A stretch of DNA of 64,000 nt, taken from an uncultured Hyphomicrobiales bacterium. GTDB lineage: Bacteria > Bacteroidota > Ignavibacteria > Kapaibacteriales > UBA2268. Under the pieces are notes generated by a model. It had not been told where the DNA came from. It saw only the letters and a list, made by a program, of their open reading frames with translations, and ran no database searches. How positions within the stretch are numbered: the stretch's first letter is position 1; every line of letters begins with the position of its first letter. Positions 3,989-57,367 of the stretch are shown piece by piece. The position numbers were made by a program, and so were the translations under genes. Where the stretch lies: NCBI GenBank assembly GCA_964472015.1, contig CAYYIP010000002.1:48977-112976 (forward strand). Reading direction: 5' to 3'.

Positions 3989-5305
3989 TTATTTAGCAGT
4001 TTCTTTTAATTTATATTCCATATATTCTATTTCTTTTTTTACATCTGGTATAAATATTTCTAAATTTGTATCTATTTTTGCAAGTTCAATAAATTTTTTA
4101 TAATCATTAATGGCATCTTCATATTTACCTAATGCTCTATATGCATTTGCTCTATTATGAATAATAGTTGCATCTTTTTGTTGTTTTAATAAAGCTGTAT
4201 AATCATTAATAGCTTCGTTATATTTCTTTATATTATAAAAGCAATTACCTCTATTTTTTAGAACTTCAGGTCGTTCAGATAATTCGCTAATTAATACTTT
4301 GGTATAATCTTGTATAGCATTTTCAAAATTTTTATCAAGATAATTCATATTTCCACGTAATTCATATACATTCATTCCATCTTTATAATTTAGTGCCTTA
4401 TCTAAATTTTTTATTGCTTCTTTATAATTGCCAAGACGATAGTGAGTTAAGGCAATATAATAATAAACTCTATCATGTTTACTATTATTATTACTATTAT
4501 TATTACTATTATTCAATGCTTGATTAAAATCTTTTATAGCATTTTCAAATTCAGAATTTTCCATATAAGCAATCCCACGATAAAATAATAAATCTTCATC
4601 ATTTGGTTTGAGATTAAAGGCAAAAGTATAGTCTTTAATTGATTGTTCATAGTTTTTTAATTCTAAATTTATGGTAGCACGCAATTTATATGCATCTGAA
4701 GCTTCTGGGTTTATTATAATTGCAGTATCTAAATCATTTTTAGCTTGTTTAAAATCTTTTAAATTATATAAAACTTCACCTCGTGTAATGAATGCAGCAT
4801 AATTTTTAGGGTTTAATGTAATTGCTTTTGTAAAATCTGCAATAGCAAGTTGTTTATCATTATTTTCTAAATACAATATTCCTCGATTATAATAAAATCC
4901 GGAATTTTTAGGGTCAATTTCTATAAGTTTATTAAAATCATTTAAGGCAAGATTATACTGTTTTTGCAATCTATAAGATTCTGCACGACTACGGTAAGCA
5001 TCTGAAAATTTTACATCTATTTTTATTGCTTCTGTAAAATCGTTTATAGCTAAGTCATATTTCCCAGTTGAATAATATGCATTTCCTCTTAAATTATATG
5101 CTTCTGCAATTAAAGGATTTTTTTCTAAAAGAATAGTTATAGCTTTTATTACTGCATTATAATTATTAGCATTATAAAATGATACTGCTTGATTAAAGAT
5201 ATTTATTTCTTCTTCCGTTTTTAATACAATATTTTCTTTTGCATAAACATTTATTGTAGTACAATAAGTTATTATAAAAAATATTAAGAAAAATCGTGCT
5301 TTCAT
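3989..5305 (-). CDS. Exported tetratricopeptide-repeat protein
   Basis: Hydrophobic N-terminal signal, then about 11 34-aa repeats of the AY..RG..Y...G.Y..AI.DF..AI...P type. Confidence 0.88.
   Translation of the reverse strand: MKARFFLIFFIITYCTTINVYAKENIVLKTEEEINIFNQAVSFYNANNYNAVIKAITILLEKNPLIAEAYNLRGNAYYSTGKYDLAINDFTEAIKIDVKFSDAYRSRAESYRLQKQYNLALNDFNKLIEIDPKNSGFYYNRGILYLENNDKQLAIADFTKAITLNPKNYAAFITRGEVLYNLKDFKQAKNDLDTAIIINPEASDAYKLRATINLELKNYEQSIKDYTFAFNLKPNDEDLLFYRGIAYMENSEFENAIKDFNQALNNSNNNSNNNSKHDRVYYYIALTHYRLGNYKEAIKNLDKALNYKDGMNVYELRGNMNYLDKNFENAIQDYTKVLISELSERPEVLKNRGNCFYNIKKYNEAINDYTALLKQQKDATIIHNRANAYRALGKYEDAINDYKKFIELAKIDTNLEIFIPDVKKEIEYMEYKLKETAK
4479..4513. repeat. In-frame 12-bp tandem repeat (TTACTATTATTA x ~3) inside the TPR gene
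   Basis: Read directly; encodes NNSNNNSNNNS between two TPR units. Confidence 0.8.
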
Positions 5306-5407
5306 AAATTATTTTTTGAATTATATTTATATATTAATCTGAATTATAATTTTGTATCTAAGTATGATATCAATTATTGTGCCATTTATAATTTTATTCT
5401 AATTTAA

Positions 5408-55094: not shown

Positions 55095-55352
55095 AAGTTT
55101 TTGAAACTATAGTAAATAAAATTATTTTTATAATAAAAGGAATGTTAAAATTATATTTTATGATTGATTTTAATATTCTTTTTTTATTTTAAATAAATAT
55201 CTATTTGTAGATAATATATTTATTTTTAGTCAATATATTATGAAAAACTATAATTATTGTTTGATTTTAATTAAAATTAATTTAGCATAATTTTTTTTGG
55301 CACAGTTTATGAAAAGAATATATATATATAATTAAAAAGACATTTTGAATAT

Positions 55353-55391
55353 ATTTATTGACAAAAAGTCAATTTATTGACAAAAAGTCAA
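55353..55391 (+). promoter_or_regulatory. Tandem 19-bp duplication, each copy carrying a TTGAC-N5-GTCAA palindrome; candidate operator of dnaK
   Basis: ATTTATTGACAAAAAGTCA at 55353-55371 and 55372-55390, 60 bp before the dnaK ATG; regulatory role is inference. Confidence 0.65.
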
Positions 55392-55438
55392 AATTTTGTT
55401 AATTTTTTAAAATAAAAAATATATAATTAAAAATATAA

Positions 55439-57367
<1,929 letters not shown>

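What the first reader, a model, noticed from the sequence alone, without database searches (positions are those of the whole stretch)
55353..55405. Doubled TTGAC-N5-GTCAA palindrome before dnaK: candidate non-canonical heat-shock operator
Seen: two perfect head-to-tail copies of ATTTATTGACAAAAAGTCA. Each gives TTGAC-AAAAA-GTCAA (55358-55372, 55377-55391) and contains a perfect TTGACA; the second is 17 bp from TAATTT (55400-55405). Knowledge: it is not CIRCE (TTAGCACTC-N9-GAGTGCTAA) or HAIR (CTTGAGT-N7-ACTCAAG), and it lacks the 3-nt-spaced direct repeat of the CtsR box although it shares GTCAA. dnaK here is monocistronic with no hrcA. Inference: tandem sites for a dimeric regulator overlapping a -35 element, pointing to an unrecognised chaperone regulon.
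Basis: partly seen in the sequence, partly recalled or inferred. Interest (0 to 1): 0.62.

Follow-up and report, generated by a model that had tools for sequence, protein, structure and literature searches.

The report
Sigma-54 heat-shock enhancer boxes before dnaK
The doubled palindrome is real and is the local copy of a control box found next to sigma-54 promoters of heat-shock genes across Bacteroidota and their relatives.

Summary
Two perfect 19-bp tandem copies lie at 55353-55391, and three independent public assemblies carry them without gaps.

It also missed a third, degenerate box (AGACATTTTGAAT, 55338-55350).

- **Clade conservation.** Seven of eight related dnaK leaders (DnaK 76-89% identical) have the same promoter-like element followed by 2-3 boxes [A/T]GACA-N3-TGTC[A/T]. 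In five lineages the boxes start at the same distances, +40/41, +61/62 and +80/81. Exact boxes number 13 in 1.46 kb of these leaders and 0 in 122 kb elsewhere.
- **Wider relatives.** In Bacteroidia, Chlorobium and Ignavibacteria the same box lies upstream of sigma-54 promoters of dnaK and hsp20. In metagenomes, tandem boxes sit before sigma-54-driven hsp20 genes and beside sigma-54 activator genes.
- **Literature.** Sigma-54 promoters at chaperone genes of Bacteroidota are published. I found no published description of the box or the activator.

Best reading (about 0.6): a three-site binding array for a sigma-54 activator, placed 3' of the promoter as in the Caulobacter ftr elements. The TTGACA "-35" is a by-product of the TGACA half-site.

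This is a new variant of a known kind, of moderate interest.

The parts
55298..55312 (+). Sigma-54 type -24/-12 promoter element TGGCACAGTTTATGA. GG is at 55299-55300 and the -13 G at 55311. The predicted start is near 55324.
   Evidence: It matches TGGCAC-N5-TTGC at 8 of 10 core positions with exact spacing. A at -12 is the commonest letter at dnaK promoters of Bacteroidia. It is conserved as TGGCA[CT]-N5-[ATG]TG[TA] in L081-84, L085-91, L212-215 and L001. The start site was not mapped.
55338..55350 (.). Box 1, degenerate: AGACATTTTGAAT. The left half-site is intact and the right half is TGAAT.
   Evidence: It starts 40 bp from the T of TGGCAC. Exact boxes AGACACTTTGTCT (L087, +41) and GGACATATTGTCA (L212, +40) lie at the same place, and L081 has CGACAAATTGAAT at +41 (direct reading).
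55359..55371 (.).
   Evidence: It starts at +61. Aligned boxes lie at +61/62 in L081, L087, L089 and L212. The core GACA-N3-nGTC has one deviation from GACA-N3-TGTC.
55378..55390 (.).
   Evidence: It starts at +80. Aligned boxes lie at +80/81 in L081, L087 and L089.
55353..55391 (.). Perfect 19-bp tandem duplication (2.05 copies) that makes boxes 2 and 3 and their spacers identical.
   Evidence: TRF: period 19, 100% matches. Independent contigs agree with no indels. In relatives the two boxes differ from each other, so the identity here is a lineage-specific duplication or conversion.
55377..55405 (+). Status uncertain.
   Evidence: Read directly from the sequence. It is not listed by the sigma-70 scan, which finds only chance-level sites here, and it is not conserved in relatives.
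55451..57367 (+). dnaK, 638 aa, monocistronic. A Shine-Dalgarno-like AAAGG lies at 55438-55442.
   Evidence: NF001413 E=0 and TIGR02350 E=2.2e-295. It is transcribed in activated-sludge metatranscriptomes X25-X28.

Best explanation
The doubled palindrome is boxes 2 and 3 of a three-box array. It is the local form of the box TGACA-N3-TGTCA that accompanies sigma-54 promoters of heat-shock genes in the Bacteroidota/Chlorobi/Ignavibacteria group.

Proposed mechanism:
1. RNA polymerase carrying sigma-54 binds the -24/-12 element at 55298-55312 as a closed complex that cannot open by itself.
2. Dimers of a sigma-54 activator (an AAA+ enhancer-binding protein with a C-terminal helix-turn-helix) bind the three boxes. 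The boxes start 19-21 bp apart, about two helical turns, so they lie on one face of the DNA. The dimers assemble into a hexamer.
3. ATP hydrolysis by the hexamer opens the promoter, and dnaK is transcribed with a leader of about 127 nt.
4. Proteotoxic stress raises activator activity. How it does so is unknown. Titration of an inhibitory partner or of chaperones is a guess by analogy with PspF-PspA.

In this clade the array lies 3' of the promoter, with box centres near +22, +42 and +61 from the predicted start. That makes it a downstream enhancer like the Caulobacter ftr elements.

Shown: the sequence elements, their conserved geometry, and their association with sigma-54 promoters, chaperone genes and activator genes in relatives. 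Inferred: protein binding, activation rather than repression, and the stress signal. The perfect identity of the two copies is a recent local duplication or conversion. The TTGACA is a by-product of the half-site.
For: 1. **Promoter and boxes in the clade.** A -24/-12 element followed by boxes occurs in the window and in seven of eight related lineages (L214 keeps the promoter but has no box of this form). Box starts are identical (+40/41, +61/62, +80/81) in five lineages. The spacers are largely diverged in sequence, apart from a box-1 remnant shared by the window and L081.
2. **Enrichment.** Exact GACA-N3-TGTC occurs 13 times in 1,456 bp of these leaders and 0 times in 121,669 bp of the same loci and the window.
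3. **Sigma-54 promoters before dnaK.** The scan found a sigma-54-type element before dnaK in 61 of the 92 sequences examined, which include several near-identical strain copies. The stricter re-count found 49 among the 80 genome-contig loci. Of those 49, 18 carry TGNCA-N3-TNNCA 11-13 bp upstream of TGGCA and 3 carry it 22 bp upstream, one helical turn further. Chlorobium L025 has two tandem boxes 33 bp upstream.
4. **hsp20 in relatives.** hsp20 genes just before dnaK in L003, L004, L010 and L013 have exact boxes upstream. In L010 and L013 a clear sigma-54 promoter lies 125-150 bp downstream of the box. Pfam HSP20 was confirmed for L003, L010 and L013.
5. **Unbiased metagenome scan for tandem boxes.** About 20 of 120 loci have a consensus sigma-54 promoter within 300 bp, against about 3 expected by my estimate. 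In 19 of 21 promoter-box pairs the boxes lie upstream. Targets include Hsp20 in four loci (three confirmed by Pfam, the fourth read from its sequence), and a ClpB-like gene lies divergently beside the L156 array.
6. **Activator genes next to the boxes.** Tandem boxes lie within about 260 bp of NtrC-type activator genes in L093, L100, L171 and L179, and apparently L121; in L182 the gene ends about 1 kb away.
7. **Published support.** Mapped sigma-54 promoters drive groESL, dnaK, grpE-dnaJ, htpG, clpB and lon in Flavobacterium psychrophilum (PMC9723704). Chaperone genes are enriched for sigma-54 promoters in Bacteroidota (PMC12316311).
8. **Precedent for 3' enhancers.** See the titles of Gober and Shapiro 1992 and Mullin and Newton 1993 in the reference list of PMC3096577.
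9. **Machinery in close relatives.** L085-91 encode a Response_reg/Sigma54_activat/HTH_8 protein 2.7 kb from dnaK.
Against: - No transcription start is available. RNA runs cover dnaK but not the leader.
No activator gene (GAFTGA motif) lies in the 64-kb window.
- The -12 region reads ATGA, not TTGC.
- A location downstream of the promoter is rare for enhancers: only 2 of 21 promoter-box pairs in the metagenome scan, and both are doubtful.
- Box centres at +22 to +61 are very close to the polymerase, and such a position is also what a roadblock repressor would use.
- The right half-site here is AGTCA, not TGTCA.
- Many other tandem GACA-N3-TGTC arrays in metagenomes look like iterons or phage repeats, so the box is not specific to one protein family.
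- Other chaperone promoters of this genome could not be examined.
Confidence: 0.6

Rival explanations
1. Operator for a dimeric repressor acting as a roadblock or open-complex blocker. A heat-labile or chaperone-controlled repressor binds the three boxes just downstream of the start site and blocks transcription from the sigma-54 promoter until stress releases it.
For: The boxes lie at about +16 to +67 from the predicted start, a classic repressor position. Tandem palindromes on one helical face also suit cooperative repressors. FlbD shows that a protein of the activator family can repress from such sites (titles of Benson 1994 and Wingrove and Gober 1994).
Against: In other lineages the same box lies 11-207 bp upstream of sigma-54 promoters, where a repressor could not block. 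The boxes are adjacent to activator genes, not repressor genes. A sigma-54 promoter needs an activator site, and no other candidate site is conserved in this clade.
Confidence: 0.15
2. The true dnaK promoter is sigma-70 type (TTGACA 55377-55382, 17 bp, TAATTT with TGn). The palindromes are an operator overlapping its -35 for an unknown heat-shock repressor. The upstream TGGCAC element is something else or a second promoter.
For: The TTGACA is perfect, the spacing is 17 bp, and a TGn extended -10 is present. A dual arrangement, with a housekeeping promoter repressed and a sigma-54 promoter activated by the same protein, would resemble FlbD.
Against: The -10 matches 3 of 6 positions and the pair is not listed by the scan. 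Sigma-70-like sites in this spacer are at chance level. Relatives have CTGACA, TAGACA or AGACAC at this place, with no consistently spaced -10; L087 has TTGACA and TATAAT 23 bp apart. The TGGCAC element is conserved in eight lineages.
Confidence: 0.12
3. RNA element. The palindromes act as small hairpins in the 5' leader, as a thermometer, a stability element or a protein-binding RNA.
For: If the sigma-54 start is used, the boxes are transcribed. The centroid fold shows two small hairpins.
Against: The fold is no better than shuffles (z = -0.95, 34 of 200 shuffles as good). The stems have 5 pairs with 2 G-C pairs and lie more than 45 nt from the ribosome-binding site. GACA/TGTC is invariant rather than covarying. 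In most lineages the boxes lie upstream of the promoter and are not transcribed.
Confidence: 0.03
4. Neutral slippage duplication in AT-rich spacer DNA, with no function.
For: The two copies are perfectly identical, spacers included, which points to a recent event. Other low-complexity repeats lie nearby.
Against: Boxes occur at the same positions in lineages that lack the duplication. The enrichment is 13 against 0.
Confidence: 0.02

Closest known systems
Sigma-54 (motif SM4) promoters of the protein-quality-control genes of Flavobacterium psychrophilum (Guerin et al. 2021, PMC9723704), and the predicted sigma-54 chaperone regulon of Bacteroidota and Planctomycetota (PLoS One 2025, PMC12316311)
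   Same: dnaK in a member of the same phylum-level group sits behind a -24/-12 element. No CIRCE, HAIR, CtsR box or sigma-32 promoter is present. The regulon content in relatives (dnaK and hsp20, with a ClpB-like gene beside one box array) matches.
   Different: As far as I read them, those papers describe only the promoters. They say the activators are unassigned and describe no enhancer box. Here the box is defined, and it lies downstream of the promoter.
Caulobacter crescentus ftr elements bound by FlbD at flaN/flbG and related flagellar promoters (Mullin and Newton 1993; Gober and Shapiro 1992; Benson et al. 1994; cited through PMC3096577)
   Same: Binding sites for a sigma-54 activator that lie 3' of the promoter, inside the transcribed region. 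The same protein can also repress when its site overlaps a promoter.
   Different: The phylum, the regulon (flagella against chaperones) and the site sequence all differ. From my own knowledge, the ftr sites lie further downstream (about +100) and work with IHF. Here the boxes are at about +16 to +67 and no IHF site was examined.
Multi-site enhancers of NtrC-family activators: the three NorR sites at norV, the three GlrR sites TGTC-N10-GACA at glmY, and the LuxO site TTGCA-N3-TGCAA (recalled from my own knowledge, not tested here)
   Same: They have two or three palindromic sites on one helical face that nucleate a hexamer. The 5-N3-5 geometry matches the LuxO site. TGTC/GACA half-sites match GlrR.
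   Different: Those sites lie upstream, at about -80 to -240. The proteins are not orthologues as far as tested: the activators next to boxes in metagenomes reach no named NCBIfam equivalog cut-off.
HrcA-CIRCE, HspR-HAIR, CtsR and RheA repressor systems
   Same: Palindromic or repeated DNA sites before chaperone genes.
   Different: The window has no CIRCE. It has no HAIR or CtsR box near dnaK; the only weak matches lie elsewhere. There is no sigma-70 promoter logic and no repressor gene next to dnaK. The RheA operator TGTCATC-N5-GATGACA, recalled from my own knowledge, has the half-sites in the opposite order.

Membership tests
Sigma-54 dependent promoter | GG at -24 and G(C) at -12 with exact spacing (TGGCAC-N5-TTGC) | tested here: met
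   TGGCAC-AGTTT-ATGA at 55298-55312: TGGCAC is perfect, the spacing is exact, and the T and G of TTGC are kept. A at -12 is the commonest variant at dnaK promoters of Bacteroidia.
Sigma-54 dependent promoter | Conservation at the orthologous place in relatives | tested here: met
   Eight related lineages carry TGGCA[CT]-N5-[ATG]TG[TA] 138-215 bp before the dnaK ATG. The broader scan found such an element in 61 of 92 dnaK leaders examined.
Sigma-54 dependent promoter | Transcription start about 12 nt downstream of the -12 element | tested here: inconclusive
   Metatranscriptome contigs cover dnaK but not the leader. Only contigs were available, not raw reads.
Sigma-54 dependent promoter | rpoN and at least one enhancer-binding protein encoded in the genome | not testable with these tools
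No GAFTGA protein lies in the window. Relatives L085-91 encode a Sigma54_activat protein.
Enhancer (UAS) of a sigma-54 activator | Two or more palindromic sites on one helical face | tested here: met
   Three boxes start at +40, +61 and +80, with spacings of 21 and 19 bp.
Enhancer (UAS) of a sigma-54 activator | Same site associated with sigma-54 promoters of several co-regulated genes | tested here: met
   Seen in relatives and metagenomes at dnaK and hsp20, with a ClpB-like gene beside one array. It could not be tested in this genome itself.
Enhancer (UAS) of a sigma-54 activator | Location about 80-150 bp upstream of the promoter | tested here: not met
   In the window and its clade the boxes are 40-103 bp downstream of the -24 element. 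In other lineages they are upstream by 11-207 bp.
Enhancer (UAS) of a sigma-54 activator | Bound by the activator's DNA-binding domain | not testable with these tools
   This needs EMSA or footprinting. The only indirect support is the adjacency of tandem boxes to activator genes in L093, L100, L171, L179 and L121.
HrcA-CIRCE | TTAGCACTC-N9-GAGTGCTAA before chaperone genes | tested here: not met
   0 matches in the window with up to 3 mismatches.
HspR-HAIR, CtsR box and sigma-32 promoter | CTTGAGT-N7-ACTCAAG; RGTCAAA-NAN-RGTCAAA; CTTGAAA-N13-15-CCCCATNT | tested here: not met
   No match lies in the dnaK leader. The only weak hits, at 2-3 mismatches, are elsewhere in the window.
   TTGACA-17-TAATTT with TGn is present. 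It falls below the scan threshold, sigma-70-like sites here are at chance level, and the pair is not conserved in relatives.
RNA thermometer or leader hairpin | Stable, conserved structure with covariation, usually masking the ribosome-binding site | tested here: not met
   z = -0.95. The core letters are invariant. The boxes lie more than 45 nt from the ribosome-binding site.

The most novel reading that the evidence does not exclude
In this uncultured low-GC clade, the heat-shock activator of the sigma-54 chaperone regulon works from a three-box array placed inside the transcribed leader, right in front of the polymerase it activates. The same bound protein would be both the ATP-driven switch for the sigma-54 promoter and a brake. 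As a brake it would either block the elongating polymerase or repress a housekeeping promoter overlapping box 3 (TTGACA-17-TAATTT), as FlbD does in Caulobacter. This would be a bifunctional, self-limiting heat-shock switch, and the first 3' enhancer described outside flagellar gene control.
Probability: 0.15. Interest if true: 0.7.

Novelty: new variant of a known kind. Interest (0 to 1): 0.5.

Why it matters
How Bacteroidota and their relatives sense heat and protein damage is still open. They mostly lack the sigma-32 and HrcA logic of the model bacteria. Only the promoter type (sigma-54) has been published. I found no published description of the activator or of its DNA site.

This locus contributes three things:
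- A clean three-site version of the candidate enhancer box.
- Evidence that the box travels with sigma-54 promoters of dnaK and hsp20 across several classes, and with activator genes.
- A clade in which the box has moved to the downstream side of the promoter while keeping exact spacing. That constrains how the activator reaches the polymerase.

It also gives a short, well-defined DNA probe (55330-55400) for fishing out the activator.

Tried and rejected
- **Exact-protein look-up.** The window's DnaK found no contig.
- **Known heat-shock signals.** CIRCE, HAIR, CtsR box and sigma-32 promoter are absent from the leader.
- **Sigma-70 promoter scan.**
- **RNA structure of the leader.** Not better than shuffles.
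- **Start-site mapping from public RNA runs.** dnaK is expressed in X25-X28, but no contig covers the leader. X1 is labelled RNA-Seq but behaves like DNA. X30 and X31 are patchy low-depth runs of unknown type.
- **Copy-number variants of the 19-bp unit.** None were seen in X1, X5, X6 or X9.
- **Metagenome scan noise.** Many of the 120 tandem-box hits are chance matches inside high-GC ORFs or iteron-like arrays of mobile elements. Only the subset with sigma-54 promoters was used.
- **Naming the activators next to boxes.** None reaches a curated NCBIfam equivalog cut-off.
- **A second sigma-54 promoter downstream of the boxes.** There is no GG between box 3 and the ribosome-binding site in the window or in L081. 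Only weak TGGCA words occur in L087 and L212.
- **Literature searches for the box or the activator.** Nothing was found.

Full report
**1. Observation**

The window reads ATTTATTGACAAAAAGTCA twice, head to tail, at 55353-55391. TRF gives period 19, 2.1 copies and 100% matches. Each copy holds TTGAC-AAAAA-GTCAA. The second TTGACA is 17 bp from TAATTT, which is preceded by TGT.

dnaK (638 aa, NF001413 E=0) starts at 55451. It lies between fabF upstream and a convergent rsmD downstream.

Contigs of independent public runs span the duplication without any indel: X1, X5 and X6 and X9. The second copy is therefore not an assembly artefact.

The window is 24% G+C. The best DnaK relatives are uncultured Bacteroidota, Ignavibacteria and Kapaibacteria from digesters and wastewater.

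Within the window alone the motif count is not significant. The case rests on comparison with relatives.

**2.

Sixty-one bp upstream of the first palindrome lies TGGCACAGTTTATGA (55298-55312). It is a sigma-54 -24/-12 element with perfect TGGCAC, exact spacing and ATGA where the consensus has TTGC.

A third, degenerate box, AGACATTTTGAAT, lies at 55338-55350.

**3. Close relatives**

I fetched dnaK leaders of eight related lineages:

| Loci | DnaK identity to the window | Note |
|---|---|---|
| L081-84 | 89% | same synteny as the window |
| L085-91 | 84% | different synteny |
| L212 | 83% | |
| L213, L214, L215 | 81% | |
| L001 | 76% | |

All eight carry TGGCA[CT]-N5-[ATG]TG[TA] 138-215 bp before the ATG. 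Seven of them have two or three boxes [A/T]GACA-N3-TGTC[A/T] downstream of it. L214 has no box of this form, only TGTCA and TGACA half-sites in the opposite order.

Box starts, counted from the T of TGGCA:

| Lineage | Box starts |
|---|---|
| Window | 40, 61, 80 |
| L081 | 41, 62, 81 |
| L087 and L089 | 41, 61, 80 |
| L212 | 40, 61 |
| L213 | 50, 89 |
| L215 | 82, 103 |
| L001 | 72, 100 |

The spacers between promoter and boxes are largely diverged in sequence; the window and L081 share a remnant at box 1. The other positions mostly keep the helical phase.

Exact GACA-N3-TGTC occurs 13 times in the 1,456 bp of these leaders. It occurs 0 times in the remaining 121,669 bp of the same loci and the window.

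The core letters G, A, C, A and T, G, T, C are almost invariant, and the outer letters vary. This is the pattern of a protein-binding site, not of a covarying stem.

In relatives the boxes differ from each other. The perfect identity of the two 19-bp units in the window is therefore a recent duplication or conversion in this lineage.

**4. Wider relatives**

- The first scan found a sigma-54-type element before dnaK in 61 of the 92 sequences then in hand (80 genome-contig loci, 11 close-relative loci that include near-identical strain copies, and the window). A stricter re-count of the 80 genome-contig loci found 49.
- Of those 49 promoters, 18 have TGNCA-N3-TNNCA 11-13 bp upstream of TGGCA, and 3 have it 22 bp upstream, one helical turn further. 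The background is 0-3 per position.
- Chlorobium L025 has two tandem TGACA-N4-TGTCA boxes 33 bp upstream.
- In several Ignavibacteria and Chlorobi, dnaK follows an hsp20 gene. L003, L004, L010 and L013 have exact boxes upstream of that gene. In L010 and L013 a clear sigma-54 promoter follows 125-150 bp downstream of the box; the elements in L003 and L004 are weaker. Pfam HSP20 was confirmed for L003, L010 and L013.

**5. Unbiased metagenome scan**

I scanned metagenome contigs for two GACA-N3-TGTC boxes 8-9 bp apart.

Many are chance hits in high-GC ORFs or iteron-like arrays. About 20 have a consensus sigma-54 promoter within 300 bp, against about 3 expected by my own estimate. In 19 of 21 promoter-box pairs the boxes lie 14-207 bp upstream.

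Targets:
- Hsp20 in L111, L121 and L156 (Pfam) and in L193 (read from its sequence).
- A DksA-like protein (Pfam).
- By my reading of the sequences: CBS-domain proteins, an ElaB-like protein and response regulators.
- A ClpB-like gene lies divergently beside the L156 box array; no promoter was found for it.

Tandem boxes lie within about 260 bp of genes for NtrC-type activators (receiver, AAA+ with GAFTGA, HTH) in L093, L100, L171 and L179. In L121 an open frame ending in an HTH-like tail stops 15 nt before the boxes. In L182 the activator gene ends about 1 kb from the boxes. None of these activators reaches a named NCBIfam equivalog cut-off.

**6. Literature**

- Guerin et al. 2021 mapped transcription starts in Flavobacterium psychrophilum. 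They found sigma-54 (SM4) promoters for groES-groEL, lon, dnaK, grpE-dnaJ, htpG and clpB. They noted three unassigned activators (PMC9723704).
- A 2025 survey found chaperone genes enriched for sigma-54 promoters in Bacteroidota and Planctomycetota (PMC12316311).
- Five searches found no description of the box or of the cognate activator.
- Downstream enhancers are known from Caulobacter ftr elements bound by FlbD. FlbD also represses when its site overlaps a promoter (reference list and text of PMC3096577).

**7. Earlier notes of this scan**

I read these after I had reached the reading above. They describe the same (C)TGACA-N3-TGTCA(G) box, phased with the -24 element, at groES and dnaK across Bacteroidota. 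They propose a sensor-less, PspF-like activator.

These are leads, not independent evidence. I re-derived the box and the phasing here. I could not test the activator proposal.

**8. Mechanism**

Most likely (about 0.6):
1. Sigma-54 holoenzyme sits closed at 55298-55312.
2. Three activator dimers on the boxes form a hexamer.
3. ATP hydrolysis by the hexamer opens the promoter.
4. Stress raises activator activity by an unknown route.

The boxes are 3' of the promoter in this clade, with centres at about +22, +42 and +61.

Rivals:
- A repressor roadblock at the same boxes (0.15).
The scan does not support this promoter, and it is not conserved.
- RNA hairpins (0.03). The fold gives z = -0.95.
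- A neutral duplication (0.02).

CIRCE, HAIR, CtsR box and sigma-32 promoter are absent from the leader.

**9. Limits**

- There is no start-site evidence.
- The genome could not be searched. rpoN, the activator and the other chaperone promoters of this organism are therefore untested.

**10. Verdict**

The finding is real and functional. It is not an unknown kind of operator. It is the enhancer half of the sigma-54 chaperone circuit of this phylum group, in an unusual downstream, three-box, recently duplicated form.

Noticed in passing
window 5371-5385 (- strand): A second, better sigma-54 promoter match, TGGCACAATAATTGA, lies about 65 nt upstream of a 438-aa TPR-repeat protein gene (3989-5305, -), just after trmD. 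By my estimate the chance expectation in this AT-rich window is about 0.03. No GACA/TGTC box lies nearby, so a different activator would serve it.
   Followed up: partly
window 55202-55239: A second 19-bp-period tandem repeat (TATTTGTAGACAATATATT consensus, 2 copies, 84% matches) lies 60-95 bp upstream of the -24 element. Its units (TAGATAATATATT and TAGTCAATATATT) look like decayed boxes. They could be relics of an ancestral upstream enhancer, or chance. The repeat is not seen in L081 or L085.
   Followed up: partly
window 55377-55378 (runs X30, X31): Contigs of two runs of one study both begin at 55377/55378, the first base of the second TTGACA, and the AT-rich spacer upstream is uncovered. 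The library type is unknown and depth is about 3x. This may be a coverage drop in AT-rich DNA or a real RNA 5' end.
   Followed up: partly
L121, L171, L179 (metagenome loci): There is a recurrent layout: an NtrC-type activator gene, then tandem GACA-N3-TGTC boxes within about 25 bp of its stop codon. In L121 a sigma-54 promoter and an Hsp20-domain gene follow. This suggests the boxes serve the gene downstream of the activator gene.
   Followed up: partly
L127 233-263: One tandem box pair sits between two divergent consensus sigma-54 promoters. One of them drives what looks like a CBS-domain protein gene. L185 shows a similar CBS-like target.
   Followed up: no
L092, L105, L120, L136, L141, L160 and others: Many tandem GACA-N3-TGTC arrays in metagenomes are iteron-like repeats (up to 11 overlapping matches in L137) with no sigma-54 promoter. 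They probably belong to plasmids or phages. The same half-site geometry is used by unrelated DNA-binding proteins.
   Followed up: no
L002, L006, L010, L011, L014, L015, L022, L023, L027, L029: In many Ignavibacteria and Chlorobi the sequence just upstream of dnaK encodes an Hsp20-like C-terminus, so dnaK appears to follow an hsp20 gene and probably shares its sigma-54 promoter. In the window's clade dnaK is monocistronic, with its own promoter and downstream boxes.
   Followed up: partly
L087 7587-7599: A one-mismatch box, TGACACTTTATCA, lies 44 nt before the start of the Response_reg/Sigma54_activat/HTH_8 gene, which sits 2.7 kb downstream of dnaK in the 84%-identity relatives. It is absent from L089. 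This could be an autoregulation site or chance.
   Followed up: no
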